A stretch of 37,708 bases of DNA from positions 1-37,708 of the IMG/VR virus record IMGVR_UViG_3300026255_000014; one strand, written 5' to 3'. The notes beneath the pieces are model-generated. The model was not told the DNA's origin. It was given only the letters and a program-made list of their open reading frames with translations, and did not search any database. Origin of the DNA: a virus. Made by a program: the position numbers and the translations under genes. This document shows positions 1 to 37,708 of the stretch, in pieces; position 1 is the first letter of the stretch; each line of letters opens with the position of its first letter.

Positions 1-312
1 CCGTTTTGTGGGAGGACACCGAATCCAGACTGGACTGATGAGAGCTACATAGAGTGTACAAATCGTAAATGTTCTCTTTATGGTTATGGAATGAGTACAG
101 GCGACTGGAACACCCGCCCAATTGAGGATGACCTTCGCAAGCGCATTGCCGAGTTGGAGGCGCTTGTTAATGTGTCGGAAGGTCTTTACGAGCGTATCTA
201 TGAGCAAGCAGCCCGCATTGCCGAGCTGGAGGCGGAGATTGTCCAACTTACCGCTCACGATGCTACAGAGCGGCAAGATGATAAGTGGATACCGGAGGTG
301 CAGGATGTGTAA
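1..312 (+). CDS. Lar-like zinc-ribbon protein, 5' truncated by window edge; duplicate copy of 37306..37638
   Basis: ORF track 91..312 translation is identical to the C-terminal part of 37306..37638; the frame is open back to position 1. Confidence 0.5.
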   Translation, partial: PFCGRTPNPDWTDESYIECTNRKCSLYGYGMSTGDWNTRPIEDDLRKRIAELEALVNVSEGLYERIYEQAARIAELEAEIVQLTAHDATERQDDKWIPEVQDV

Positions 313-382
313 CTTTTTCAGTTTTGTAACAGACCCAGTGAATCACCCAGCGGAGTATTACTACTTCGACTGGGAATATCGC
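1..382. repeat. Terminal redundancy, left copy; identical to 37327..37708
   Basis: Direct comparison of the first and last 382 nt of the window shows identity; implies a unit genome of about 37,326 bp. Confidence 0.9.
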
Positions 383-1069
383 AAGGCGCACCTAAACGAC
401 GATGGAGTGGACAGCCATTCGCATATCTGTGCATACTACCTCCTCAACGAGGATAGATGTAACAAATATGAGTTCAATCCGCTGACTGGAAGATTTGATA
501 TTGACCAAATCAACTCGGAGCGTGATGATTCAAATGCTGCAGAAAAGTGGGCGAAACGGCAGGACTTCAAAGAGATTGTCGAGACACTTATTATCAAGCC
601 GATTGTCAAACCGTTTGAGTTGCCAAAGGTAGAACAAGTGACAGATGAACAAATTGGCTGGCTGAAGGAGTGGGCTTCGGTCAGGGATTTGGTCGGGGCT
701 TCGGTCTGGGCTTTGGTCGGGGATTCGGTCAGGGATTCGGTCTGGGCTTTGGTCGGGGTTTCGGTCAGGGATTTGGTCTTGGATTCGGTCAGGGATTTGG
801 TCGGGGCTTCGGTCTGGGCTTCGGTCAGGGCTTCGGTCAGGGATTTGGTCGGGGCTTCGGTCTGGGCTTCGGTCAGGGATTCGGTCTGGGCTTCGGTCTG
901 GGCATATATCAGCAGTTTTTTCGCCATCAACTACAAATACAACTTTTCGTCTGTAGCAAATCTTTGGAACGCAGGGCTTGTACCCTCATTTGACGGTGAG
1001 ACATGGCGGTTGCATAGCAGCGAGAATGCGGATGTGGTTTACGAGTGGACGCCGGAGGTGCAGGAATGA
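305..1069 (+). CDS. Hypothetical protein with internal tetrapeptide tandem-repeat array and C-terminal WTPEVQE tail
   Basis: Same frame as ORF 122..1069; likely start ATG 305 sits 5 nt after GGAGGTG and overlaps the upstream stop. Ends in the conserved junction CCGGAGGTGCAGGAATGA. Frame assignment through the repeat is ambiguous. Confidence 0.5.
   Translation: MCNFFSFVTDPVNHPAEYYYFDWEYRKAHLNDDGVDSHSHICAYYLLNEDRCNKYEFNPLTGRFDIDQINSERDDSNAAEKWAKRQDFKEIVETLIIKPIVKPFELPKVEQVTDEQIGWLKEWASVRDLVGASVWALVGDSVRDSVWALVGVSVRDLVLDSVRDLVGASVWASVRASVRDLVGASVWASVRDSVWASVWAYISSFFAINYKYNFSSVANLWNAGLVPSFDGETWRLHSSENADVVYEWTPEVQE
672..899. repeat. 19 tandem copies of a 12-bp unit GGGNTTYGGTCN
   Basis: Read directly from sequence. 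No stop codons in any forward frame, which is why ORFs 122..1069, 670..993 and antisense 436..930 all cross it. Confidence 0.9.
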
Positions 1070-1395
1070 ACACGCTTAAACCCTGCCCGTTTTGTGGGAG
1101 GACACCGAATCCAGACTGGACTGATGAGAGCTACATAGAGTGTACAAATCGTAAATGTTCTCTTTATGGTTATGGAATGAGTACAGGCGACTGGAACACC
1201 CGCCCAATTGAGGATGACCTTCGCAAGCGCATTGCCGAGTTGGAGGCGCTTGTTAATGTGTCGGAAGGTCTTTACGAGCGTATCTATGAGCAAGCAGCCC
1301 GCATTGCCGAGCTGGAGGCGGAGATTGTCCAACTTACCGCTGATAGCACAGACGAGCGGAAAGATGATAAATGGATACCGGAGGTGCAGGAATGA
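1066..1395 (+). CDS. Lar-family-like zinc-ribbon protein (putative restriction alleviation), paralog B
   Basis: N-terminus MNTLKPCPFCG...C..RKC is a CxxC/CxxC zinc ribbon resembling Lar family proteins, followed by a coiled coil. Near-identical to 37306..37638 except the last ~12 codons. ATG 1066 overlaps the upstream stop (ATGA). Confidence 0.6.
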   Translation: MNTLKPCPFCGRTPNPDWTDESYIECTNRKCSLYGYGMSTGDWNTRPIEDDLRKRIAELEALVNVSEGLYERIYEQAARIAELEAEIVQLTADSTDERKDDKWIPEVQE

Positions 1396-2014: not shown

Positions 2015-2271
2015 GCGAACAAAAACATCCGGATGATATGACGCGTGAGGAGTTGATAACCCTCGTGTTTGCAATGAGCTGGGCGGCGTTGGATTTAGCA
2101 CAACACTTGGATTTTACAACAAAAATGCTGAAAGAAGAATATCGAAAAGAAGCTTACAAAAAAGCGACACGAATGGCATATGAACTTGTTTTTCTTTGGG
2201 AAGTAGAACCAGATGAGAATAAAAATTCGGGGATACTTATTTTTGGTGAAAATGGATTGGAGCACGGGTGA
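2011..2271 (+). CDS. Hypothetical protein
   Basis: ORF track; ATGA overlap with upstream gene. Confidence 0.5.
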   Translation: MSEQKHPDDMTREELITLVFAMSWAALDLAQHLDFTTKMLKEEYRKEAYKKATRMAYELVFLWEVEPDENKNSGILIFGENGLEHG

Positions 2272-2586: not shown

Positions 2587-2793
2587 ATGGGATTTTGGGA
2601 AGAGTTGTTTTATGTCATGAAAATAGGCACGGTGGTTACCGTGTGTGGGCTGTTGGCAAGTTTGCCGATAGCGTTTATAGTGCACCTCGCGATTGAAAGA
2701 GGGTCATGGTTGTTAGGTGTTCTGGCGTTCTTTGTACTTATAGCGATTGCGAGTATAGCGGTTGTTATCCAAGAACGGTTGGAGGCTGAATGA
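2587..2793 (+). CDS. Small membrane protein (two predicted TM helices)
   Basis: Hydrophobic segments VVTVCGLLASLPIAFIV and LLGVLAFFVLIAIASIAVV. Confidence 0.5.
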   Translation: MGFWEELFYVMKIGTVVTVCGLLASLPIAFIVHLAIERGSWLLGVLAFFVLIAIASIAVVIQERLEAE

Positions 2794-3238: not shown

Positions 3239-3571
3239 ATGGAATTTGACGTAACACTTTTAGGAATCGTAATCGGAATGATGGTACTGGCTAACCGCTT
3301 GGTGGCAATGCTCATTACTCCGCTGTGGGATAAGTACGGCTGGGACAAATTCTGGCTGGCTTATCCGGCCTGGATTCTATCGGGCGTGTTCGTGTGGCTG
3401 ACTGAAGTCAACCTATTCGCCGCGTTTATCCCGAACGCGCTTATCGGTCAAATTCTGACTGCCATTGTTGCAGGGGGCGGGTCAAATTTGCTCCACGACC
3501 TAACTGACAAGCCATCCAATCTGATTGCCGTGTTTGATGCGCTTGAAGATTACGAGGACGCTAACGGATGA
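3239..3571 (+). CDS. Membrane protein, possible holin
   Basis: 110 aa with multiple hydrophobic helices and an acidic C-terminus; holin assignment is an inference from size and topology only. Confidence 0.4.
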   Translation: MEFDVTLLGIVIGMMVLANRLVAMLITPLWDKYGWDKFWLAYPAWILSGVFVWLTEVNLFAAFIPNALIGQILTAIVAGGGSNLLHDLTDKPSNLIAVFDALEDYEDANG

Positions 3572-3996
3572 GCGAGAACGTCTGGGTCGCAATCATAGCA
3601 GCGGTGCTGGGCGGAGGCGGCTTAGGCGCGGCTATTGTGAATGCGCTTGCTAACCGCAAGAAAATCCAGGCGGACTGTGTAGCAACGCTATCATCCGCAT
3701 ACGAAACGAGGATAAACGCTCTCAATAAGCGGGCGGATGAGTTGGCGGCGAAGGTGGACGTCTTAGAGGCGCAAGTCTGTGGCTTGCGTTCTGCATTGTC
3801 AGACAGGGAAGCAATGATTGTGAATTTGCAGCAGGAAAATGTTGATTTGCAGGCGCAAGTGGACAAGTTGAGCAAGGTGGTCAACAACAAGGATAAGCGT
3901 ATTCGGGAATTAGAGCGACAGGTCGCTGACCTGACCACGCGTCTTAATGCGATGAATGGTGGAAGCGGTGAGGCTTGGCTCGGTGGTACTGATTGA
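3568..3996 (+). CDS. Membrane-anchored coiled-coil protein
   Basis: N-terminal TM segment WVAIIAAVLGGGGLGAAIV followed by a long heptad-rich region. Confidence 0.5.
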   Translation: MSENVWVAIIAAVLGGGGLGAAIVNALANRKKIQADCVATLSSAYETRINALNKRADELAAKVDVLEAQVCGLRSALSDREAMIVNLQQENVDLQAQVDKLSKVVNNKDKRIRELERQVADLTTRLNAMNGGSGEAWLGGTD

Positions 3997-4584: not shown

Positions 4585-5071
4585 AACGCCATTGCCAGAT
4601 GCTTTGAAAGAAGCACAGGGAACGCTGAAGAAGAGCCGAGTAAATGACTCTCAGGCTCGTTTTGACGTACCTAAAGACTCACCGAAACCGCCGACAACGC
4701 TCAATCTCTATGGCAAGCGGTTGTGGAAAGAAATGCTGCCAAAGTTGGTTGAAACAGGTCTTTATACCGAAGGTGATCACCAGGCGTTTGAATTGCTTTG
4801 CATGGCTTATGGTGATCTGATTCAGGCACGCAAAGACCTTAAAGAGTCGGGTACGATTGTTATCACAGACAAGGGCACGGTTTATCAGCACCCTAACGTT
4901 GGGATCGCAAACCAGGCTTGGAATCGGGTGAAACTGATGTTGGGGCAGTTTGGGCTGACACCAGCAGAGCGGACACGAGTAAAAGCACGCTCACCCGAAG
5001 AGAAAAGGGGCAGTTTGGCAGAATCGTTGTTTGCTGCTGCACGTGAAAAGGTTGAGGGTGAGACTGAGTGA
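4574..5071 (+). CDS. terS: Terminase small subunit (P27-family-like)
   Basis: Motif GQFGLTPAERTRVKA and N-terminal RGRTPLP resemble P27-family TerS. Start uncertain: GTG 4574 follows an AGGTGGGG SD; ATG 4547 and 4532 are in-frame alternatives. Confidence 0.7.
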   Translation: MRGRTPLPDALKEAQGTLKKSRVNDSQARFDVPKDSPKPPTTLNLYGKRLWKEMLPKLVETGLYTEGDHQAFELLCMAYGDLIQARKDLKESGTIVITDKGTVYQHPNVGIANQAWNRVKLMLGQFGLTPAERTRVKARSPEEKRGSLAESLFAAAREKVEGETE

Positions 5072-16578: not shown

Positions 16579-17196
16579 TTGAAGAACTTTCTGATCGAGC
16601 AGTTTCCTGATGCAATCGAGATTGACGGTGAAGTATATGCCGTCAATACTGATTTTCGTGTCGGGTTACAGATTATGGCTGACTTTGAGAATCCTGAGTT
16701 TGACCAGGATGAGAAGGGCTATCTAATGCTCAATCGGCTTTATCGTGATTTGCCAGATGACAGGGACGGCGAGTTTTATCAGGAAGCGTTATCAAAGGCG
16801 ACTAAATTTCTGAACGCTGGCGATGAGGCAGGACAAGACGTTGACGGCAAACCACGGCTTTACTCGTTTGACAAAGACGCACGGTTGATCTATTCTGCTT
16901 TCTCACAGACTCACGGTGTAGACCTGCAAACAGCCGATATGCACTGGTGGAGGTTTATCGCTCTCTTCATGGATTTGGGGGCAGATACGGCTTTCAATTC
17001 TATGGTCAACCTACGGAAACGTTATCACGAAGGCAAGTTGACCGATGAAGAAAAGAAATTGGTAGCGCGGTTAGGCAATGATTTTCTACTTGAGCAGGAA
17101 GAAAGTTATGAGCCGCTTGACCCTGATGAAATTGCATTTATTGAACTTTTACCAGAAGAAGACCAAAAGAGGTTTTGGGAAAGCAGGAAACGCTAA
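16579..17196 (+). CDS. Tail assembly protein (Gp15-like, candidate)
   Basis: TTG start; N-terminal pattern recalled from the Gp15 family; stop overlaps the TMP start (TAATG). Confidence 0.4.
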   Translation: MKNFLIEQFPDAIEIDGEVYAVNTDFRVGLQIMADFENPEFDQDEKGYLMLNRLYRDLPDDRDGEFYQEALSKATKFLNAGDEAGQDVDGKPRLYSFDKDARLIYSAFSQTHGVDLQTADMHWWRFIALFMDLGADTAFNSMVNLRKRYHEGKLTDEEKKLVARLGNDFLLEQEESYEPLDPDEIAFIELLPEEDQKRFWESRKR

Positions 17197-19901
17197 TGGC
17201 GTATGATGGCAGTATACGGATTAATACAAAAATTGACGGCAAGGGCTTCAACACTGGCATAAAGAGAATGATGTCCAGCCTGGGAAGCCTGACCGCTGCG
17301 ATTGGTGTTGCTTTAAGCGTGGCGGGTCTGGTCAACTTTGGCAAGAAAAGCGTAGAAACTGCTATGCAAATGGAAGCAGGTTGGCAAGGCTTGAGTTATA
17401 TGGCAAGAGCCTACGGCAAAGACATCAACCAAATCTCAGAGTTTTTGCAGGACTACACAAAAGACGGTTTAGTGCCAATGATGAACGCACAGCAAGCCTA
17501 TAAGAACATGCTTGCCCGTGGGTACGACACAGAACAGCTTGAAAAGATGCTGCTGATTATGAAAGACAGCGCAGTTTATCTTCGCAAAGGGCAGTTGAGC
17601 ATCGGCGATGCAATCGAGAAAACCACAATGGGCTTGCGGACAGAGCGATCTATCCTGACCGACTCCTCTGGTATCGAAAAGAACATGTATAAAATGTGGC
17701 AAGCCTACGCAAAGGAAATGGGAACAACCATTTCGGCTTTGACGGAAGAGCAGAAACTTATCGCCGAGTTCCAGGGTTTCATGGAAGAGGGCGCGGTTTA
17801 TGCTGGGGCTGCCGCTGAGTACACCCAAACTTACGCTGGTCGAGTGGCGCAATTAACCGCAGCAATGGTCGGTTTGAAGGTGTCCGTGGGTAACATGCTC
17901 ATCCCATTGCTGAATGCGATGCTGCCGAAAATTATTGAGATAGTACATTGGTTTACCCGCCTTTTCAACATCGTTGGGCGCGTGTTGAACTTATTATTTG
18001 GCACAAACGTTGGGGCAATAGACGCTATAGCTGAAGGGACTGAAGATGCCGCAGATGCACAGGACGCGTTGGCTGATGCGACTGGCGAGGCGGGCAAGGC
18101 GGCTAAAGGTGCATTGGCTGCGTTTGACAAGTTGAATGTACTGGCACAACCAAAAGCAGCGAGCGGTGCTGGTGACACAGACTTAGGCTTGCCAGAAGAA
18201 GAGGAAGACGGTGGTGCGCTTGGCAAGATTGGGAAAGCACTTGATGAGTTAGAGATAAAGATTGCGGCTTTCAAACAGAACTTGCTTGCTTTCTTCGCAC
18301 CATTACAAGAGCCGTTTAATCGCTTGAAAGAGGCTTTTCTGACCTTAGGCGCGACCATCGGTACTGGCTTAGGCTGGGCGTGGGAAAACATCTTGCAGCC
18401 ATTTTTCACCTGGATAGTCCAAAGCGTTGCTCCCGTTGCTCTTGACATTATTTCTGGAGCACTTGGTGTCCTAAACGAGATTTTGATTGCAGTTTCTCCG
18501 TTGTTTGTCGCTCTGTGGGAGAACGTACTGAAGCCGTTAGGGGAGTGGGCTGGCGAGGCGTTTATCCAAGCCCTGACTTGGATTTCAGAAAAACTTACGG
18601 AGCTAAGCGATTGGATCAGCACTCACCAGGAGACAGTTCAGACAATTGCAACCATCTTAGGAAGTTTCGCCGCAGCATGGATTCTCGTGAACGGCGCGAT
18701 TGGTATTTGGAGTGGAATAGCTGCTATAGCCACGAGCGTAACAACTGCGTTTGCTGGTGCGGTTGCGTTTCTGACATCGCCAATAGGGTTGGTGGTTTTG
18801 GCAATTGGGGCGGTAATTGCAATTGGTGTGTTACTGATCCAGCATTGGGACGACGTAAAAGCCTGGGCGATTAGCACCTGGGAAAAGATCAAAGAAGTTT
18901 GGGGTGTAGTCGCAGGCTGGTTTAACGAGAAGGTAGTTGAGCCACTAAAGGCGTTCTTTGCTCCAATAGCTGAATGGTTTTCAACCAACGTTACTGATCC
19001 ACTGAAAGAGAAGTTTGCAAACCTTGTCGAGAAGTGGACTGAACTCAAAGACGTGATCAAAGAGAAGATCATTGACCCTGTAGTAAAATTCTTTGAGGAA
19101 ACCCTTAAGCCGCTGATTGCAGCCGTCCTGGACTTTCTGAAGGATTACTTTGCTGAAGTTTGGGAGGGCATAAAAGATGTCATATCTACAGTGATTGGTG
19201 CAATCGGTTTGATTTTCGAGACACAGCTTGAGTTTTGGAAAGGCATTTTTTCAGGTGTCTTCGAGGCTATCGGTGGAATTATCAAAGGTGCGTTGGAGGT
19301 TATTACTGCGGTAATAGGGACGATCATTGACGTAATCGCTGGGATTATCACCTTCCTGACTGGTGTGTTTACTGGCGATTGGGACAAAGCCTGGCAGGGT
19401 ATCAAAGACATCGTGATTGGCATTTGGGACGGGATTGTTGGTGTAATCAAGGGCGCAATCAATGGGATCATCGGGTTTATCAACGGGATGATCAATGGCA
19501 TTGTATCTGGAATCAACAACGTAATCGGCGTGCTCAATAATCTGAATATTGAAATCCCCGATTGGATTCCATTTTGGGGCGGAAAGACTTTTGGCTTCAA
19601 CCTACAAGCCCTTACTGCCCCGCAAATTCCTTTACTTGCCACTGGCGCAGTTATCCCCGCCAATGCGCCGTTCGCGGCAATCCTGGGCGACCAGAAGTCT
19701 GGTACGAATGTCGAAGCACCGCTGAAAACCATTGAGCAAGCTGTGGACAATGTGCTGGCACGGCGGGGGCTTAATACTGGTACAGACAATGGGTTGATCC
19801 ACAACGTTATCAAATTGGACGGGCAAGTCTTATATGATGCGTTTAAGAAAATTGACAAGCGCGTTGGCAGAAGCATGATTGCAGGGAGCGGTATACGATG
19901 A
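17196..19901 (+). CDS. Tail tape measure protein
   Basis: ~900 aa, alpha-helical N-terminal part, Gly/Ala/Ile-rich hydrophobic C-terminal region, position after chaperones. Confidence 0.85.
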   Translation: MAYDGSIRINTKIDGKGFNTGIKRMMSSLGSLTAAIGVALSVAGLVNFGKKSVETAMQMEAGWQGLSYMARAYGKDINQISEFLQDYTKDGLVPMMNAQQAYKNMLARGYDTEQLEKMLLIMKDSAVYLRKGQLSIGDAIEKTTMGLRTERSILTDSSGIEKNMYKMWQAYAKEMGTTISALTEEQKLIAEFQGFMEEGAVYAGAAAEYTQTYAGRVAQLTAAMVGLKVSVGNMLIPLLNAMLPKIIEIVHWFTRLFNIVGRVLNLLFGTNVGAIDAIAEGTEDAADAQDALADATGEAGKAAKGALAAFDKLNVLAQPKAASGAGDTDLGLPEEEEDGGALGKIGKALDELEIKIAAFKQNLLAFFAPLQEPFNRLKEAFLTLGATIGTGLGWAWENILQPFFTWIVQSVAPVALDIISGALGVLNEILIAVSPLFVALWENVLKPLGEWAGEAFIQALTWISEKLTELSDWISTHQETVQTIATILGSFAAAWILVNGAIGIWSGIAAIATSVTTAFAGAVAFLTSPIGLVVLAIGAVIAIGVLLIQHWDDVKAWAISTWEKIKEVWGVVAGWFNEKVVEPLKAFFAPIAEWFSTNVTDPLKEKFANLVEKWTELKDVIKEKIIDPVVKFFEETLKPLIAAVLDFLKDYFAEVWEGIKDVISTVIGAIGLIFETQLEFWKGIFSGVFEAIGGIIKGALEVITAVIGTIIDVIAGIITFLTGVFTGDWDKAWQGIKDIVIGIWDGIVGVIKGAINGIIGFINGMINGIVSGINNVIGVLNNLNIEIPDWIPFWGGKTFGFNLQALTAPQIPLLATGAVIPANAPFAAILGDQKSGTNVEAPLKTIEQAVDNVLARRGLNTGTDNGLIHNVIKLDGQVLYDAFKKIDKRVGRSMIAGSGIR

Positions 19902-23504: not shown

Positions 23505-24014
23505 ATGGCAGCATCATACCCAGGAACGATAAAACCATTTTCAACGAAAGAACCCGGTCAAGCAATCGCCTCCAGCCACATTAACGAATTGCAGGACGAA
23601 GTGGTCGCCATCGAAACCCAACTCGGCACGAACGCAGGAATATGGCAATCTTATACGCCTACCACAGTAATAGGATGGGAGGCAGGCTATACCGTAGATT
23701 ATAGATATGCCGTAATAGGCGATTTATGCTTCATAGCCCTGTCTATATCAGGAACAAGCAACAACAATCAAGCACGAGTCAGTACACCAGTACCAGTAGG
23801 GGGAACTGGCTATTTATATACACCAGTAGCACTATATAAGGATAATGACGTAATGGTTTACGCTGGCGGCAGAGTTTTTGGTCAGATAAGACCGCACACC
23901 GTATCTGAACCAGATATGGTATTTTTCTGGATTGACGGCTCGGCTTCTAGTTGGACAGAAACTAAAGGAAAACAAATATATTTTAACGCATTTTACCCGA
24001 TTTACCGAGCATAA
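23505..24014 (+). CDS. Hypothetical protein
   Basis: Position only. Confidence 0.4.
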   Translation: MAASYPGTIKPFSTKEPGQAIASSHINELQDEVVAIETQLGTNAGIWQSYTPTTVIGWEAGYTVDYRYAVIGDLCFIALSISGTSNNNQARVSTPVPVGGTGYLYTPVALYKDNDVMVYAGGRVFGQIRPHTVSEPDMVFFWIDGSASSWTETKGKQIYFNAFYPIYRA

Positions 24015-24057
24015 AGCATGAAACCAATAATTGACATAAGCAGCCACCAGGAGGATT

Positions 24058-25470
24058 ATGACTTATCCGTTCGGCATTGACATTTCGGCTTACCAATACT
24101 CACAAGACGGCTCACGAAAGCCCGACTTCGACCTAATCAACGAAAAGTGTGACTTCGTTGCCGTGCGTGCTGGCATCAGTTGGGGGTACACCGACAAGTG
24201 GTTTGAGTATTCGTGGTCACACGTTCTCAGACCGAGGCTGGGGTATCACGTGGTTTACCCTGGCGAGAGTGCGACTGCACAAATGAAACACTTTCTCAAC
24301 ATCGTGCATCCAACTCAGAATGACCGCCTTGTGCTTGATATGGAACTCGACCACGGCTATAGCAAGGCTCGAATCACAAAAACGCTTGTGGACTGTATGA
24401 ACATTATACAGACAGAGACGGGGCGTTATCCTGTGATTTACAGCAGGGCTTATTGGATTAACCAGTTTGTAGACGTGAACGCTTTGCCAGAAAAGACCGA
24501 CTGGTGGTTAGCAAACTACCTGCGTTCTAATCCCGACCCGTATTTCACGCCAGAGATGACACCGCCGCCTATGTTGCCAAACGGTGTGAAGAATTGGCTC
24601 ATCCATCAAACGTCAAAAGAACAGGACGGCAGTAAGGTGGGCGTGGTTAGTCACTATGTGGACACTAATCGTTGGAACGGTACACACGATGAGTTGCTGG
24701 CTTACTTCGGTTACGATGAGCAACCAGAGCCTGAACCTGAACCTGAACCGGAAGAGCCTTTGTTCCAAGCACGCGTTTACAGCTGGGCGACTCCCTACGT
24801 CAACGTGAGAGCCGAACCTTCATTAAGCGCAGGGAAAGTCGGCTTCAAATACCCGTTAGCGGTGACCGATGTTATGAGCACGATGCCTGACTGGTACGAA
24901 GTGCCCGAAGGCTGGATGATGTCTCGATTCTTAGAACGGCTTGACTATGACCCGCCCGCCACGATGCTTGCAATCAAGCCGCTCTCACAAAGAGACACGC
25001 GCTGGGCTTCTCACAAACTCGGTTATTCCTATTACACGATAGGCGGTTACGGATGCCTTATCACAGCTATCAGTATGATACTGAACTGGTACGGCAAGCA
25101 GACCGACCCGGCGCAACTCAATGACGCTTTGGTTAGGGTGGGCGGTTTCACGGGTGCAAACCTTTATTGGAACGCAATCGCGCAAGTTCAGCCTGACATT
25201 TACCTTGCAAAGGCTATCGACTGCTACTATATTCCAGCACCCTTGCACGAAATAGACGCTCTGCTTGCGGATGACGTTCCCGTCTTGGTGCACGTTGACT
25301 TCACGCCGGGTGGCGCGGTAGATCAGCATTGGGTGCTGATTGTCGGCAAGTCGGGCGATGATTACATCATCAATGACCCGTGGACTGGGGAGCAAGGTAG
25401 TTTCCGCACTCGTTATGGCGATCCTGCCCGCTGGATATTCCGCATCAGGGCGTATCGGAGGCAAGCATGA
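24058..25470 (+). CDS. Modular endolysin: GH25 muramidase, (EP)n linker, C-terminal C39-like cysteine peptidase
   Basis: N-terminal FGIDISAYQ typical of GH25; linker EPEPEPEPEPEEP; C-terminal GYGCLITAISM and DQHWVLIVG suggest a papain-like Cys/His pair. Confidence 0.8.
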   Translation: MTYPFGIDISAYQYSQDGSRKPDFDLINEKCDFVAVRAGISWGYTDKWFEYSWSHVLRPRLGYHVVYPGESATAQMKHFLNIVHPTQNDRLVLDMELDHGYSKARITKTLVDCMNIIQTETGRYPVIYSRAYWINQFVDVNALPEKTDWWLANYLRSNPDPYFTPEMTPPPMLPNGVKNWLIHQTSKEQDGSKVGVVSHYVDTNRWNGTHDELLAYFGYDEQPEPEPEPEPEEPLFQARVYSWATPYVNVRAEPSLSAGKVGFKYPLAVTDVMSTMPDWYEVPEGWMMSRFLERLDYDPPATMLAIKPLSQRDTRWASHKLGYSYYTIGGYGCLITAISMILNWYGKQTDPAQLNDALVRVGGFTGANLYWNAIAQVQPDIYLAKAIDCYYIPAPLHEIDALLADDVPVLVHVDFTPGGAVDQHWVLIVGKSGDDYIINDPWTGEQGSFRTRYGDPARWIFRIRAYRRQA

Positions 25471-25513
25471 CCTTCGTGATCAATTCAAACATTCAACCTA
25501 TAGGAGATAACTA

Positions 25514-25924
25514 ATGGCAACTTACACAAAATTTCAACAATTCGTAGAAGACCTTGCAGAGAAGAAACACAATCTCGCAACCGACACACTCAAGGTCGCG
25601 TTTTCCAACGCCGCTAACGCCCCATCTGCTTCGGCTGACGTCAAGCTGGCTGACATTACCACCATTGTCGCAACCAACTTGGGCGACGTTACCCTAACCG
25701 TATCGAGCTCAAGCCAAACCGCCGGCACGTACAAGTTGGTGGTTGCAGACAAGACCCTAACCGCGGTGGGCGCAGTACCAGCGTTCCGCTATGTGATCAT
25801 CTACAACGACACCGCCGCTAACGACGAGTTAATCTGCTTCTTCGACTACGGCTCGGAAGTCACGCTCGCATCGGGCGACACGTTCAAGCTCGACTTCGGC
25901 ACAGAACTGTTTAGCTTGGCGTAA
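25514..25924 (+). CDS. Hypothetical protein (Thr/Ala-rich, beta-rich)
   Basis: ORF track; no motif recognised. Confidence 0.4.
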   Translation: MATYTKFQQFVEDLAEKKHNLATDTLKVAFSNAANAPSASADVKLADITTIVATNLGDVTLTVSSSSQTAGTYKLVVADKTLTAVGAVPAFRYVIIYNDTAANDELICFFDYGSEVTLASGDTFKLDFGTELFSLA

Positions 25925-26032: not shown

Positions 26033-28426
26033 ATGGCAAATTGGGCTAAGTTACAAGAGCAACTGACAGGACTGCCTGTTGTAAAGCGAGACAAGCACAG
26101 CATCCACTTTGCCAAAGGTGACGGGCAAATCGTTGCCAACTTCTCAGGCGCACCCTGTCACTATGAAGAGAACGGCATCTGGAAAGCACTCGACACCGCC
26201 ATCGTTGAACTGGAAGACGGCTCACTTGGCGCAAAGGGCGTACCAGTCCGCTTGAACCTGAACGGGCTTGTCAGGCTTATCAACGAAAACAACGAGGACT
26301 TATACAGTCAAGTCACGACACGGGTGGGCGTGTTCAATAGCACTACCCGCAACTTGGTAGATTACATCAACCTGCCAGTAGGACAAGTTCAAGACGACCT
26401 GCTGATAAAAGACACCGACCTCTATTCTCACAGTTTGCGCTTGACCGAAACAGGCTTGCGCGAAGAAATTGTCATCAAGTCAAAGCCAGCGTTTGTAACC
26501 GACAAGGCTAACTTATGGCTGGTACTTGACACGGTTGTGACGGGCGTAAGTTTCGAGGACGGCTGGCTGGATGCGTTTGAGATTGCGCAAATGCACTTCC
26601 CACCTCCAACCGCTACCGATGCGGAGGGGCGAGAGGGCACGGCGAAACGCTATGCCAAGAATATTGGTGGCGTTCAGCACATCTTTACTGGCTTGAAATT
26701 CAGTGAGTTGTATCGGGCGGCTTACCCTGTAACGGTTGACCCTGACTTTAGTGGTGGGTCTGGATATGTAATTACTAGTCAAAGTACTGATTATGCTACT
26801 GCAAGAACAACGAGTGTATCTTCAGCAGCTTGGTCGAATAGGTCTGACGTTGGGCAGGGACAGTGGTCTGTTTATCTAAGAACTTTACGCATCTTTACAA
26901 AGTTTGACACATCAAGTATAGGAGCAGGCTCAACAGTTACACAAGTTAACTTGGCTATGTGCCCTTATTATAACAATTCTGCTACAGATTTTGACATCCA
27001 GATATGTATGCAAGACTGGTCGGCTCAAGACCCCATAGCATCGGGAAATAGAGAAACAGCGTTTGACAACTGTCTCGCAGAAACAGATTACGATGTTTGG
27101 TTGAACAGTGCTGATTGTCCGAAAAGACAGAGATATACGGGTGGAAATATGACCACATCGTGGATTAACAAGACTGGCACAACATATTATAGTATTCGCT
27201 CAAGTAGGGACTACAACGGCGATGAGCGTGTAATTGATGGAAATACTGAAACTGTTAACTTGTGTGCGCCAGATAACGCCACCGAATCCTACCGCCCCGT
27301 TCTTACCGTCACCTATCTCATTCCCGACTACACCCTCACTTGCGCCGCCGGTTCATACTCGCTGACTGGCACGGATTGCACGCTTACGCACACTCCGGCA
27401 TCGCAAAACCTGACCCTCACCTGTTCCGCTGGCTCATATTCGCTAACAGGCACGAACGCCGACTTGACGGTCAAGCGGAATTATGTGCTGGCGTGTGGTG
27501 CTGGAAGTTATTCGCTCACCGGCTCGGATGTGGATTTTGTTCTGCAACGCAATTACTCGCTTGAATGCGGTGCTGGAAGTTACAGCCTGACTGGTACGGA
27601 CACGACATTCGAGGTCAAGCGAAATTACACGCTTGTCTGTGAAGCTGGAAGCTACAGTCTTACTGGTACTAACGCCGACTTGACGGTCACCCGACATTAC
27701 ACGCTAACCTGTGAGACTGGAAGTTATGCGCTTGCTGGCACTAACGCCGACCTTATTTTACAGCGCAACTATGTGTTAGCTTGCTCTGCTGGCAATTACT
27801 TAATCACAGGCACGGACGTAACACTCACTGTTCAACGCAATTACACCCTCACCTGCGCCGCCGGTTCATACTCGCTGACTGGCACTAACGTCACGCTCAC
27901 ATCAACCGTAAAGCAAAACTTGACGCTGGCTTGTTCTGCAGGCTCGTACTCGCTTACTGGCACTAACGCCGACTTGACGGTCACCCGACATTACACGCTA
28001 ACCTGTGAAGCTGGAGGTTATGCGCTTACTGGCTCAATCGTTGATCTGACAGTCCAGCGCAACTATGTGTTGGTGTGTGAAGCTGGTAGTTACGCGCTAA
28101 CCGGAACAAACGCAGGCTTGACTTCTGCTCGCACAATGGCACTCGAATCAGGTTCGTACGCCTTGACTGGCACGAATGCCGGTCTATACCGCGCGTTGGT
28201 TATGGCTTGTGAGGCTGGAACTTATGCGCTCACAGGCTCGGATGCTACGTTCAATGCCAATTACATATTTGCTCTCGGAATGGGGAGTTACGTTCTGGTT
28301 GGCACGAGCGTGGGATTGTTCGTTCTCTCGCCAACACCGGCTTGCAGAACCGCGACAATCGAATTTGAGAACAGAACATTTGCAATTCCGCATGAGAATA
28401 GAACATTAGAGGTCACATGTCACTAA
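26033..28426 (+). CDS. Large repeat protein: ~430-aa N-terminal domain plus ~16 tandem 22-23-aa Cys-containing repeats
   Basis: Repeats of consensus YTLTC.AGSYSLTGTNADLTV.RN span roughly nt 27320..28330. Confidence 0.6.
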   Translation: MANWAKLQEQLTGLPVVKRDKHSIHFAKGDGQIVANFSGAPCHYEENGIWKALDTAIVELEDGSLGAKGVPVRLNLNGLVRLINENNEDLYSQVTTRVGVFNSTTRNLVDYINLPVGQVQDDLLIKDTDLYSHSLRLTETGLREEIVIKSKPAFVTDKANLWLVLDTVVTGVSFEDGWLDAFEIAQMHFPPPTATDAEGREGTAKRYAKNIGGVQHIFTGLKFSELYRAAYPVTVDPDFSGGSGYVITSQSTDYATARTTSVSSAAWSNRSDVGQGQWSVYLRTLRIFTKFDTSSIGAGSTVTQVNLAMCPYYNNSATDFDIQICMQDWSAQDPIASGNRETAFDNCLAETDYDVWLNSADCPKRQRYTGGNMTTSWINKTGTTYYSIRSSRDYNGDERVIDGNTETVNLCAPDNATESYRPVLTVTYLIPDYTLTCAAGSYSLTGTDCTLTHTPASQNLTLTCSAGSYSLTGTNADLTVKRNYVLACGAGSYSLTGSDVDFVLQRNYSLECGAGSYSLTGTDTTFEVKRNYTLVCEAGSYSLTGTNADLTVTRHYTLTCETGSYALAGTNADLILQRNYVLACSAGNYLITGTDVTLTVQRNYTLTCAAGSYSLTGTNVTLTSTVKQNLTLACSAGSYSLTGTNADLTVTRHYTLTCEAGGYALTGSIVDLTVQRNYVLVCEAGSYALTGTNAGLTSARTMALESGSYALTGTNAGLYRALVMACEAGTYALTGSDATFNANYIFALGMGSYVLVGTSVGLFVLSPTPACRTATIEFENRTFAIPHENRTLEVTCH

Positions 28427-37124: not shown

Positions 37125-37309
37125 GCGACATTAAAGAGTATCAGTCAGATTCAATAGTTTGCGATTTGTGTAATGGAAAAGGAAATATATTGATGACCTT
37201 CCATGATTGGATTTTAGATGAAACGCGCACGGAAGTGAGTACCTGTATCCGTTGTAAAGGCAAGGGCTTCTTGCATGATGGCAAACAGCCGCCGGAGGTG
37301 CAGGAATGA
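37121..37309 (+). CDS. Small zinc-ribbon protein
   Basis: CDLCNGKG...CIRCKGKG; ends in the PEVQE junction. Confidence 0.55.
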   Translation: MSDIKEYQSDSIVCDLCNGKGNILMTFHDWILDETRTEVSTCIRCKGKGFLHDGKQPPEVQE

Positions 37310-37638
37310 ACACGCTTAAACCCTGTCCGTTTTGTGGGAGGACACCGAATCCAGACTGGACTGATGAGAGCTACATAGAGTGTACAAATCGTAAATGTTC
37401 TCTTTATGGTTATGGAATGAGTACAGGCGACTGGAACACCCGCCCAATTGAGGATGACCTTCGCAAGCGCATTGCCGAGTTGGAGGCGCTTGTTAATGTG
37501 TCGGAAGGTCTTTACGAGCGTATCTATGAGCAAGCAGCCCGCATTGCCGAGCTGGAGGCGGAGATTGTCCAACTTACCGCTCACGATGCTACAGAGCGGC
37601 AAGATGATAAGTGGATACCGGAGGTGCAGGATGTGTAA
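37306..37638 (+). CDS. Lar-family-like zinc-ribbon protein (putative restriction alleviation), paralog A
   Basis: Same N-terminal zinc ribbon and coiled coil as 1066..1395; complete copy of the gene truncated at 1..312. Confidence 0.6.
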   Translation: MNTLKPCPFCGRTPNPDWTDESYIECTNRKCSLYGYGMSTGDWNTRPIEDDLRKRIAELEALVNVSEGLYERIYEQAARIAELEAEIVQLTAHDATERQDDKWIPEVQDV

Positions 37639-37708
37639 CTTTTTCAGTTTTGTAACAGACCCAGTGAATCACCCAGCGGAGTATTACTACTTCGACTGGG
37701 AATATCGC
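37327..37708. repeat. Terminal redundancy, right copy; identical to 1..382
   Basis: Direct sequence identity. Confidence 0.9.
37631..37708 (+). CDS. 5' end of the tandem-repeat protein gene (duplicate of 305..382), truncated by window end
   Basis: Identical to 305..382. Confidence 0.45.
   Translation, partial: MCNFFSFVTDPVNHPAEYYYFDWEYR

What the first reader, a model, noticed from the sequence alone, without database searches (positions are those of the whole stretch)
24017..25470. Three-part endolysin with an upstream out-of-frame remnant of a second GH25 N-terminus
The endolysin combines a GH25 muramidase, an (EP)n linker and a C-terminal C39-like Cys/His peptidase domain. Just upstream, a 20-codon ORF at 24017..24079 in another frame reads MKPIIDISSHQEDYDL, resembling a GH25 N-terminus. 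That may be a relic of a replaced endolysin 5' end.
Basis: partly seen in the sequence, partly recalled or inferred. Interest (0 to 1): 0.5.

Follow-up and report, generated by a model that had tools for sequence, protein, structure and literature searches.

The report
Relic start of a replaced endolysin domain
Just upstream of this phage's cell-wall-cutting enzyme gene lie the first eight codons of a different lysozyme gene, left when one catalytic module replaced another at a spot that selfish homing-endonuclease genes invade in related phages.

Summary
Window 24018..24080 (not 24017..24079) is a 20-codon ORF. Its first 8 codons, plus 4 upstream bases, are 100% identical to the start of a second GH25 allele ("type A", MKPIIDISFWQ...) that is intact in related phage contigs. 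The working endolysin (24058..25470) carries a "type B" GH25 only 24% identical to type A. Its SH3-like and C39-like half is 96-98% identical in protein to that of type A phages. So a ~0.7-kb GH25 cassette was swapped between codon 8 and the (EP)n linker.

The enzyme has four parts, not three: GH25, EP linker, SH3b-like domain and Peptidase_C39_2 domain. The residues expected for both active sites are conserved.

New here: the same gene-start position is an insertion site for GIY-YIG homing endonuclease genes. Contig L022 matches the window up to base 24083. It then carries such a gene fused in frame to the first ~9 type B codons, followed by a recoded endolysin start. Twenty endonuclease clusters show this design. 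One contig has a type B stub with a type A gene, the mirror image of the window.

Endonuclease-driven replacement followed by endonuclease loss is the likeliest origin. It is inferred, not shown.

The parts
24014..24041 (+). Relic of the type A GH25 gene start: 4 upstream bases plus codons 1-8 (ATGAAACCAATAATTGACATAAGC, MKPIIDIS)
   Evidence: 100% identical over 27-28 nt to the start of full-length type A endolysin genes in L005 and L017. Aligned with other type A starts. The pattern occurs once against 0 expected by chance.
24018..24080 (+). 20-codon upstream ORF (MKPIIDISSHQEDYDLSVRH*) formed by the relic. It runs through the Shine-Dalgarno site and 23 nt into the endolysin ORF in another frame.
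   Evidence: In related contigs the equivalent ORF differs in length and C-terminus: L027 has 20 codons, L025 has 14 (..KGGL*), L010 has 16 (..AGGI*). Only the first 8 codons are conserved.
24042..24057 (+). Junction spacer with Shine-Dalgarno AGGAGG (24049-24054), 3 nt before the endolysin ATG. Possibly the last codons of a lost homing-endonuclease gene (GGA GGA TTA TGA = GGL*, with the stop overlapping the ATG).
   Evidence: Sequence. The homing-endonuclease 3' ends in L028 and L037 read ..AAAGGAGGAGTGCAATGA and ..AAAGGAGGAACAGGATGA (KGGVQ*, KGGTG*) with the same ATGA overlap. This resemblance is suggestive only.
24058..25470 (+). Endolysin gene, 470 aa
   Evidence: ORF. Pfam and PHROG endolysin hits. 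More than 390 homologues.
24058..24711 (+). Type B GH25 muramidase module (aa 1-218). The residues expected at the active site are Asp8, Asp94, Glu96 and Asp202.
   Evidence: Pfam PF01183, 62.5 bits. Foldseek matches to GH25 structures 1jfx, 2wag and 4krt with TM about 0.78-0.80 normalised to the target. D8 and D202 are invariant; D94 and E96 are conserved in at least 90% of 43 homologues. This stretch is shared at DNA level only with L010 (96.7%), L018 (90%) and L022 (96%).
24083..24106 (+). Empty homing site. In L022 a 740-nt cassette (GIY-YIG endonuclease gene, Shine-Dalgarno site and a recoded endolysin start of 17 codons, one more than the 16 they replace) replaces window 24084-24105.
   Evidence: L022 is 93% identical to the window on the left (540/580) and 96% on the right (583/608). 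The 5' 48 nt of the restarted gene are only 57% identical (30/53).
24718..24753 (+). (EP)n linker, QPEPEPEPEPEE (aa 221-232). It is also the right-hand recombination zone of the GH25 cassette.
   Evidence: pLDDT below 50 at aa 221-230. DNA similarity to type A contigs begins at 24696, 24733 or 24742, depending on the contig.
24763..24939 (+). SH3b-like beta domain (aa 236-294)
   Evidence: Pfam SH3_3, E 1.7e-3, below the cut-off. PF08239 is on record for many homologues. The model is all-beta here with block-mean pLDDT 76-95 (83-95 except the last block). Foldseek matches the SH3 domain 2krs at E 1e-2.
24973..25461 (+). Peptidase_C39_2 (papain-like) domain, aa 306-468. The putative catalytic residues are Gln311, Cys333 (25054-25056), His424 (25327-25329) and Asp440 (25375-25377).
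   Evidence: Pfam PF13529, 40.4 bits against a cut-off of 24. All four residues are invariant in 43 homologues. Foldseek matches 3erv (C39-like peptidase, E 2e-5) and the PCAT1 and ComA peptidase domains.
25467..25514 (+). Second short ORF at the downstream joint (MTFVINSNIQPIGDN*). Its first 10 nt match the start of the gene that follows the endolysin in other contigs.
   Evidence: ATGACCTTCG here against ATGACATTCG, which starts the MTF... genes in L005, L009, L010, L014 and L018. Similarity to most contigs ends at 25472-25476. The match is short and weak.

Best explanation
Shown: the window's phage descends from one whose endolysin had a type A GH25 domain (MKPIIDISFWQ...). A ~0.7-kb type B GH25 cassette with its own ribosome-binding site replaced that domain. 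The swapped stretch runs from just after codon 8 of the old gene to the (EP)n linker. The first 8 codons of the old gene remain as a short upstream ORF. The SH3b-like and C39-like half was kept.

Inferred: the swap was started by a GIY-YIG homing endonuclease gene of the kind that sits at exactly this position in relatives. These genes insert in frame just after the codons for (G/I)-I-D-I-S, which include the conserved Asp8 codon. They borrow the resident gene's start signals and first 7-14 codons. Behind them they carry a ribosome-binding site plus either a recoded gene start or a whole alternative GH25 gene. The presumed steps are a cut in an endonuclease-free genome, then repair from the endonuclease-carrying genome, which copies in the endonuclease gene and the downstream GH25. 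The endonuclease gene was later lost by internal deletion, leaving stub, tail, Shine-Dalgarno site and type B gene.

The stub probably has no function of its own now. At most it passes ribosomes from the upstream gene on to the endolysin start.

Estimated likelihood: relic of a replaced 5' end, about 0.95; endonuclease-driven origin, about 0.55.
For: Relic and swap:
- Window 24014-24041 is 100% identical to type A gene starts.
- Type A and type B GH25 domains are 24% identical.
- The window's C-terminal half is 96-98% identical in protein to type A contigs L003, L004 and L005. It is 92% identical to type B contigs L010 and L018, and 33% to L022.
- L003 also shares the downstream gene and the same joint.
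- L018 carries type B with no relic, so the real start is 24058.

Endonuclease link:
- L022 has the same upstream gene (89% protein identity), the same relic, the same Shine-Dalgarno site and the same first 26 nt of type B. It then has a 246-aa GIY-YIG/NUMOD3 ORF beginning MTYPFGIDIS-RSGIYQ (Pfam E 2.5e-10 and 3.4e-18), then a restart VSELPFGIDLS...
- The window is therefore the empty-site allele of L022.
- Of the 120 closest endonuclease clusters, 19 carry type B-like stubs and P0145 carries the type A-like stub MKPIIDISSWQNPR. The other 95 have a median of 6 residues before the GIY motif.
- All 7 endonuclease contigs examined have a stub, the endonuclease gene, a Shine-Dalgarno site in its 3' end, and a full GH25 gene with a 5' end recoded relative to the stub or, in L035, of the other GH25 type.
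- L035 has a type B stub and endonuclease followed by a type A GH25 (43% identical to L003, 21% to the window). It is the mirror image of the window.
- No group I intron was found in these contigs.
- The type A relic breaks within 5 nt of the position where the endonuclease gene joins type B.
- The short ORFs of L025 and L010 end KGGL* and AGGI*, in frame and with the stop overlapping the ATG, like the endonuclease C-termini KGGVQ* and KGGTG*.
- L209 carries two stacked stubs, one type B and one type A, before a third GH25 allele.
Against: - No endonuclease gene or recognisable fragment is in the window (tblastn). At most 16 nt could derive from one, and any AGGAGG site can read Gly-Gly.
- No contig with type A stub, endonuclease and type B gene (the predicted intermediate) was found. 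The IMG/VR pattern scan gave 0 hits, and no further type A stubs appeared among relatives of P0145.
- Stubs also arise without endonucleases in these phages. L141 and L200 keep 27-33 type A codons followed by unrelated genes. L204 is a tandem duplication. The window's 3' joint has its own small stub.
- Cleavage specificity and homing were not tested.
Confidence: 0.55

Rival explanations
1. Same relic and same domain swap, but made by ordinary phage mosaicism. On this view an illegitimate or short-homology crossover just inside the old gene start, plus a homologous crossover in the EP linker or C-terminal half, produced the swap with no endonuclease involved. The endonuclease in L022 arrived later and independently.
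For: - These phages are mosaic at nearly every gene boundary. The upstream gene, the downstream gene and an optional 78-aa domain all vary independently.
- Stubs without endonucleases exist in L141, L200 and L204, and at the window's own 3' joint.
- No endonuclease remnant is demonstrable in the window.
- In L022 the endonuclease gene sits inside type B, not next to the type A relic, so it postdates the relic.
Against: - The break in type A falls within 5 nt of the homologous position used by 20 endonuclease clusters.
- L035 shows an endonuclease joined to a cross-type swap.
- L034 shows a type A-like stub fused to an endonuclease.
- The spacer tails of L025 and L010 mimic endonuclease C-termini in frame and in the stop/start overlap.
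Confidence: 0.38
2. The short ORF is kept because it works now. On this view it is a translated leader that couples ribosomes from the upstream gene (23505..24014) to the endolysin start, or that tunes endolysin dosage.
For: - The ATG and an open frame are kept in all four variants.
- In L010 and L025 the stop overlaps the endolysin ATG (ATGA), the classic coupling layout.
- In L027 the short ORF's own ATG overlaps the upstream gene's stop.
Against: - Frame, length and C-terminus differ among variants, and only the inherited 8 codons are conserved.
- In the window the short ORF has a poor ribosome-binding site and ends 20 nt past the endolysin ATG.
- L018 and other type B contigs do without it.
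- An open frame over about 14 codons is expected by chance roughly half the time (my estimate).
- No RNA structure is evident (z = 0.5).
- This rival is compatible with the relic origin. It concerns present use only.
Confidence: 0.12
3. Chance resemblance or assembly chimera.
For: The ORF is only 20 codons long, and GH25 N-termini are short motifs.
Against: - A 27-28 nt exact match to real gene starts.
- 0 matches expected by chance.
- The same arrangement occurs in at least 9 contigs from independent assemblies, in four sequence variants.
Confidence: 0.01

Closest known systems
Mobile endonuclease ORFs in fungal mitochondria that carry a foreign gene end (Allomyces macrogynus atp6; Glomus atp6, atp9, cox2 and nad3 hybrids; PMC3630166)
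   Same: A free-standing endonuclease gene (GIY-YIG or LAGLIDADG) inserts in frame into a host gene. It brings a diverged copy of the gene segment it displaces. The native segment stays next to it as a duplicate that may no longer be expressed.
   Different: There the 3' end of the gene is duplicated and the native C-terminus is the relic. Here the 5' end is duplicated, the endonuclease borrows the native start, and in some cases a whole catalytic domain of another type is brought in. The host genome is a phage, not a mitochondrion. In the window the endonuclease gene itself is gone.
Free-standing homing endonucleases of T4-like phages (seg and mob genes) and intronless homing with co-conversion of flanking markers (PMC2988022, PMC2790892, listed)
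   Same: The proposed mechanism is the same: a double-strand break in the endonuclease-free genome, repair from the endonuclease-carrying genome, and co-conversion of neighbouring sequence. The carrier is protected by sequence divergence at the target.
   Different: To my knowledge, T4 seg and mob genes lie between genes or split genes, without a stub-plus-duplicated-start design. No cleavage data exist for the enzymes described here.
Nuclease genes at boundaries of genetic exchange between phages (Barth, Dunham and Seed 2023, PMC10055350)
   Same: Homing endonuclease genes lie next to or inside essential phage genes and mark recombination boundaries.
   Different: That study concerns mostly T5orf172 and HNH enzymes in ICP1 and larger islands. 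Term searches of its text for 'duplicat', 'in-frame', 'fused', 'split' and 'N-terminal' found no account of in-frame 5' stubs or endolysin targets.
Modular two-enzyme endolysins of phages of Gram-positive bacteria, for example GH25 plus SH3_3 in Psm of phage phiSM101 (4krt). Peptidase_C39_2 is already catalogued as an endolysin catalytic domain (PMC5017753, PMC8223927).
   Same: A GH25 muramidase joined to an SH3-type domain. A second, papain-like peptidase module. Flexible linkers. Domain shuffling as the mode of evolution.
   Different: The order GH25, linker, SH3b, C39_2, with the binding-type domain in the middle, is less usual. It is nevertheless common in metagenomes, with hundreds of homologues of about 470 aa. 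No member has been characterised biochemically, as far as the searches showed.

Membership tests
Glycoside hydrolase family 25 (muramidase) | Match to the Pfam Glyco_hydro_25 profile above its curated cut-off | tested here: met
   62.5 bits against a cut-off of 27, aa 7-185. Type A relatives L003 and L005 score 69.1 and 67.4 bits.
Glycoside hydrolase family 25 (muramidase) | Acidic active-site residues: an N-terminal Asp, a D-x-E motif and a C-terminal Asp, as in Cpl-1 (positions recalled from established knowledge) | tested here: met
   D8 and D202 are invariant. D94 and E96 are conserved in at least 90% of 43 homologues. Assignment to catalysis is by analogy, not by experiment.
Glycoside hydrolase family 25 (muramidase) | GH25 barrel fold | tested here: met
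   Model pLDDT is 85-98 over aa 1-220. Foldseek matches 1jfx, 2wag, 2x8r and 4kru with TM 0.77-0.80 normalised to the target.
Peptidase_C39_2 / papain-like cysteine peptidase (clan CA) | Match to the Pfam PF13529 profile above its cut-off | tested here: met
   40.4 bits against a cut-off of 24, aa 306-442.
Peptidase_C39_2 / papain-like cysteine peptidase (clan CA) | Conserved Gln, Cys, His and Asp/Asn catalytic residues | tested here: met
   Q311, C333, H424 and D440 are invariant in 43 homologues of 44-94% identity.
Peptidase_C39_2 / papain-like cysteine peptidase (clan CA) | Peptidoglycan peptidase activity | not testable with these tools
   Needs a zymogram or muropeptide analysis of the isolated domain and a C333A mutant.
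Bacterial SH3 (SH3b) cell-wall-binding domain | Pfam SH3_3 match above its cut-off, or an SH3 fold | tested here: inconclusive
   18.9 bits against a cut-off of 27. PF08239 is on record for many homologues. The model is all-beta with a Foldseek match to 2krs at E 1e-2.
GIY-YIG homing endonuclease gene | GIY-YIG catalytic domain plus a DNA-binding module (NUMOD3) encoded at the locus | tested here: not met
   None is in the window (tblastn with 8 endonucleases; only the 10-11 residue stubs match). The feature is met in relatives: L022 (GIY-YIG 2.5e-10, NUMOD3 3.4e-18) and L034.
GIY-YIG homing endonuclease gene | Presence/absence polymorphism at one site between otherwise near-identical genomes | tested here: met
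   Window against L022: 93% and 96% identity flanking a 740-nt insertion at 24083/24106.
GIY-YIG homing endonuclease gene | Site-specific cleavage of the empty allele and homing | not testable with these tools
   Needs an in vitro cleavage assay and co-infection crosses.
Group I intron with an endonuclease ORF (as known in some phage lysin genes) | Intron ribozyme core detectable, with exons that join without a duplicated gene start | tested here: not met
   No Rfam intron match at E up to 1 in L022, L028, L034, L035 or L036. The endonuclease ORF fills the whole insert. Six of the seven downstream genes have their own Shine-Dalgarno site, start codon and complete N-terminus. L035 has the Shine-Dalgarno site but no canonical start codon.

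The most novel reading that the evidence does not exclude
The start of GH25 endolysin genes, at the codons for the conserved Asp8 (in the position of a GH25 catalytic Asp), is a homing site for a clade of GIY-YIG endonuclease genes. These genes fuse in frame to the resident gene's first 7-14 codons. Behind them they carry either a recoded gene start or a whole alternative catalytic domain. On this reading selfish nucleases, not only random mosaicism, drive replacement of endolysin catalytic domains. The window's short ORF would be an internally deleted endonuclease gene (stub plus tail), one layer in a stack of such invasions. L022 adds a second layer, and L209 shows two stubs. The same stub-duplication design appears at other phage genes (L080, L095, L102, L107, L114).
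Probability: 0.5. Interest if true: 0.65.

Novelty: new variant of a known kind. Interest (0 to 1): 0.5.

Why it matters
Endolysin domain shuffling is textbook, but the events that cause it are rarely caught.

Here all the states are available as natural sequences:
- the "before" state (L003-like, type A);
- the "after" state (the window);
- the occupied site (L022);
- the mirror-image swap (L035).

Breakpoints are resolved to a few bases. If the endonuclease link holds, it supplies a mechanism for swapping lysis-enzyme catalytic domains.

It also describes a 5'-end counterpart of the gene-end-carrying mobile endonuclease ORFs known from fungal mitochondria.

There are practical points too. 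Gene callers will mis-annotate such stubs, and they may truncate downstream genes, as happened in L035. The recoded starts mark the likely recognition sequence of a family of natural site-specific nucleases. The GH25-SH3b-C39_2 architecture is abundant in metagenomes, and the literature searches run here found no biochemical characterisation of it.

Tried and rejected
- Cultured-phage databases: blastn found nothing, and tblastn found only two weak GH25 hits. Relatives had to come from metagenomes.
- Group I intron in the endonuclease contigs: no Rfam hit.
- Regulatory RNA structure around the start: z = 0.5.
- A sigma-70-like promoter, TTGACA (24031) then 17 nt then GATTAT, lies inside the relic. 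Such matches occur at chance frequency in the region (4 found, 3.4 expected), and its transcript would start inside the ORF.
- Programmed frameshift or N-terminal extension of the endolysin: rejected. L018 starts type B directly after the upstream stop, and the short-ORF frame varies among contigs.
- Search for the predicted intermediate (type A stub, endonuclease, type B gene): the IMG/VR pattern scan gave 0 hits. Relatives of P0145 carry no further type A stubs. Distant IMG/VR endonucleases sit at other genes.
- Similarity of L209 stub tails to endonuclease N-termini (SGFYE against SGIYQ; RAG): not significant.
- A microhomology (TTCTGGCA) deletion model for loss of the endonuclease gene: consistent with L010, L028 and L036, but it rests on 8 nt and is left as speculation.
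- Host assignment: only a 7.4-kb contig binned to a Bacteroidales MAG, plus 34-36% C39_2 hits in Patescibacteria MAGs. Host unresolved.
Full report
**1. What is at the coordinates**

The endolysin ORF is window 24058..25470 (+), 470 aa. A 20-codon ORF lies at 24018..24080 in a different frame and reads MKPIIDISSHQEDYDLSVRH*. The finding's coordinates for it are one base low. A Shine-Dalgarno AGGAGG (24049-24054) sits inside the short ORF, 3 nt before the endolysin ATG.

Pfam gives three domain matches:
- Glyco_hydro_25 at aa 7-185 (62.5 bits, cut-off 27).
- Peptidase_C39_2 at aa 306-442 (40.4 bits, cut-off 24).
- A sub-threshold SH3_3 at aa 248-292.

PHROGs calls the protein an endolysin. An AlphaFold model built on 43 homologues has mean pLDDT 91.4. 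Only the QPEPEPEPEPEE linker is disordered, with pLDDT below 50 at aa 221-230. An all-beta domain occupies aa 236-294.

Foldseek matches three kinds of solved structure:
- GH25 enzymes (1jfx, 2wag, phiSM101 Psm 4krt).
- C39-like peptidases (3erv, PCAT1, ComA).
- An SH3 domain (2krs).

Conservation across 43 homologues of 44-94% identity supports both active sites. In the GH25 domain D8 and D202 are invariant, and D94 and E96 are conserved in at least 90%. Q311, C333, H424 and D440 of the peptidase are all invariant.

So the enzyme has four parts (GH25, EP linker, SH3b-like, C39_2), and both catalytic domains look active. Peptidase_C39_2 is already listed among endolysin catalytic domains (PMC5017753, PMC8223927). 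The architecture is common in metagenomes, with more than 390 homologues, most of them about 470 aa. Cultured-phage databases hold nothing close.

**2. The short ORF is a real gene-start relic**

Related IMG/VR and metagenome contigs carry two GH25 alleles joined to the same C-terminal half:
- Type A starts ATGAAACCAATAATTGACATAAG.. (MKPIIDISFWQAPL..). It is found in L003-L009, L013-L015 and L017.
- Type B starts MT[YL]PFGIDISAYQ... It is found in the window, L010 and L018.

The two GH25 domains are 24% identical.

Window 24014-24041 is 100% identical to the type A start in L005 and L017. The 23-nt pattern is unique in the window, with 0 expected by chance.

DNA similarity to type A contigs resumes at 24696-24742, in or next to the EP linker. 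It then runs at 85-95% to the stop codon. In protein, the window's C-terminal half compares as follows:

| Contig | GH25 type | Identity of C-terminal half |
|---|---|---|
| L003, L004, L005 | A | 96-98% |
| L010, L018 | B | 92% |
| L022 | B | 33% |

L003 also shares the next gene (87.5% protein identity) and the same downstream joint. The simplest history is an L003-like type A endolysin whose GH25 module was replaced by a type B cassette. That cassette spans about 24042-24711 to 24742.

The relic plus type B occurs in four sequence variants and four upstream contexts:
- the window together with L001, L002 and L019-L022;
- L027;
- L025;
- L010.

L018, L023, L024 and L026 have type B without any relic or endonuclease gene. 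L028 also lacks the type A relic, but it carries an endonuclease gene at the type B start.

Only the first 8 codons are conserved among the short ORFs. Length, frame and C-terminus all differ. This argues against a conserved peptide.

**3. The same position is a homing-endonuclease insertion site**

L022 (LSQX01110597.1) has an upstream gene 89% identical in protein to the window's. It has the identical relic, Shine-Dalgarno site and first 26 nt of type B. It then diverges into a 246-aa ORF, MTYPFGIDIS-RSGIYQITNTANGNRYIGSS... This ORF matches GIY-YIG (E 2.5e-10) and NUMOD3 (E 3.4e-18). The endolysin restarts at a GTG as VSELPFGIDLSRWNYSPDGS.

Alignment of L022 with the window shows the following:

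| Segment | Identity |
|---|---|
| Left of the insertion | 93% (540/580) |
| Right of the insertion | 96% (583/608) |
| 5' 48 nt of the restarted gene | 57% (30/53) |

The insertion is 740 nt and replaces window 24084-24105. The window is therefore the empty-site allele.

Of the 120 closest endonuclease clusters, 19 begin with type B-like stubs such as MTLPFGIDISRSGIYQ, MTLPFGIRQAGIYQ and MSEFPLGVDLRRAGIYQ. P0145 begins MKPIIDISSWQNPR-RKCGIYQ, a type A-like stub. The other 95 have a median of 6 residues before the GIY motif.

Seven endonuclease contigs were read in full (L022, L028, L034-L037, L039). All have the stub in frame with the endonuclease, a Shine-Dalgarno site inside the endonuclease gene's 3' end, and a complete GH25 gene. 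In six of them the first codons of that gene are densely recoded relative to the stub. In L035 the downstream gene is of the other GH25 type.

L035 is the mirror image of the window. A type B stub and endonuclease are followed by a type A GH25, which is 43% identical to L003 and 21% to the window.

Rfam finds no group I intron in the five of these contigs that were scanned (L022, L028, L034-L036). Six of the seven downstream genes have their own start signals. L035 has no canonical start codon. These are therefore free-standing elements, not introns.

**4. How the window's relic most likely arose**

This part is inference. The type A relic breaks within 5 nt of the homologous point where endonuclease genes join type B, just after the I-D-I-S codons.

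The tails of the short ORFs resemble endonuclease C-termini:
- L025 ends AAA GGA GGG TTA TGA (KGGL*).
- L010 ends GCA GGA GGA ATA TGA (AGGI*).
- Both are in frame with the stub, and the stop overlaps the endolysin ATG.
- Endonuclease C-termini do the same: KGGVQ* in L028 and KGGTG* in L037.
- The window has GGA GGA TTA TGA but is 1 nt shorter than L025, which throws stub and tail out of frame.

This fits an endonuclease gene once fused to the type A stub that brought in type B and was then lost by internal deletion.

The evidence is limited in four ways:
- The tail is at most 16 nt, and any AGGAGG site can read Gly-Gly.
- The window holds no endonuclease fragment.
- The predicted intermediate was not found.
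- Endonuclease-free stubs also occur: L141, L200, L204 and the window's own 3' joint.

I put the relic claim at about 0.95. I put the endonuclease-driven origin at about 0.55 and plain mosaic recombination at about 0.38. Current use of the short ORF for translational coupling is possible but unsupported.

**5. Wider pattern**

About 45 IMG/VR contigs have full-length GH25 genes starting MKPIIDIS[FYASH][WYH]Q.

L209 stacks two stubs in front of a third allele:
- a type B stub, MTLPFGIDISKHQG..;
- a type A stub, MKPIIDISAWQ..;
- the full-length gene, MKPIIDISHHQ.., 457 aa.

More distant GIY-YIG genes show the same stub-duplication design at unrelated genes (L080/L084, L095, L102, L107, L114).

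**6. Comparison with what is known**

- The closest described analogue is the mobile endonuclease ORF of fungal mitochondria. It inserts in frame and carries a foreign gene C-terminus, leaving the native C-terminus as a duplicate (PMC3630166). The present case is the 5'-end counterpart in a phage.
- The proposed break-and-repair mechanism is that of intronless homing in T4-like phages (papers listed).
- Endonuclease genes at exchange boundaries are described for ICP1 (PMC10055350). Term searches of that paper found no account of in-frame stubs or endolysin targets.
- A search for GIY-YIG together with GH25 and phage found no paper.

**7. Verdict**

The relic itself is an ordinary product of phage mosaicism. 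Its context exposes a recurrent arrangement at endolysin gene starts that involves homing endonuclease genes, and the literature searches run here found no description of it. Novelty: new variant of a known kind. Interest: 0.5.

Noticed in passing
window 1-382 and 37327-37708: An exact 382-nt direct repeat at the two ends of the window. The window is probably a complete genome of about 37.3 kb, either circularly assembled or terminally redundant. It is siphovirus-like, with a tape-measure gene at 17175..19901.
   Followed up: partly
window 1050-1391 vs about 37290-37631: A second, internal 345-nt repeat at 96.5% identity next to the terminal repeat, plus several 18-23 nt repeats in the same region.
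   Followed up: no
window 25467..25514: A 15-codon ORF (MTFVINSNIQPIGDN*) overlaps the endolysin stop (ATGA). Its first 10 nt match the start of the MTF... gene that follows the endolysin in L005, L009, L010, L014 and L018. It may be a second gene-start stub, at the downstream joint.
   Followed up: partly
window 25514..25924: A 136-aa gene (phrog_644, unknown function) is present in the window and L003. It is absent in L007, L008 and L011, where the endolysin is followed directly by the homologue of the 797-aa gene. It behaves like a moron-type insertion.
   Followed up: partly
window 26033..28426: A 797-aa protein containing about 15 tandem copies of a ~20-residue unit (..GSYSLTGT[DN]..L[TV]..RNY[TV]L.C..). 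It has only one weak PHROG match (phrog_36919, unknown function, E 5e-4).
   Followed up: no
window 2587..2793, 3239..3571, 3568..3996: The only holin-like small membrane ORFs (two predicted membrane spans each, then one with an N-terminal span and a coiled-coil-like remainder) lie about 15 kb from the endolysin on the circular map. The endolysin itself sits among tail-fibre-like genes.
   Followed up: no
L035:4755-4800: The type A GH25 gene downstream of the endonuclease gene has no canonical start codon. ATA sits where L022 has GTG, after the Shine-Dalgarno GAGAGGTGA. The gene caller truncated the gene to start at 4945, which removes the N-terminal conserved Asp.
   Followed up: partly
L209:2040-3628: Two stacked endolysin gene-start stubs precede a full-length 457-aa GH25 gene: type B at 2040..2168 and type A at 2165..2245.
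   Followed up: partly
L080/L084, L095, L102, L107, L114 (IMG/VR): Distant GIY-YIG genes whose N-terminal extensions duplicate the N-terminus of the gene immediately downstream. One example is MRSLRPPIFVTGTARSGTS.. before MSDTTGSLRPPIFVVGCARSGTS... The stub-duplication design is not limited to endolysins.
   Followed up: no
L004, L005, L006, L010 (after the EP linker): An optional extra domain of about 78 aa (VEVEDKLFDAKVTTTPPNRLKTRY...WMERVEDKL) lies between the linker and the SH3b-like domain. It occurs with either GH25 type, so it is another independently shuffled module.
   Followed up: no
L204 (minus strand, 1826-2500 in reversed coordinates): A tandem duplication of about 295 nt covers the 3' part of the upstream gene plus the first 20 codons of the GH25 gene. 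It creates a chimeric 93-aa ORF before the intact gene.
   Followed up: no
L041-L045 (Patescibacteria / Shapirobacteria MAGs): The only genome-collection relatives of the C39_2 domain, at 34-40% identity over aa 309-453, are in candidate-phyla-radiation MAGs. The host of the window phage remains unknown.
   Followed up: no
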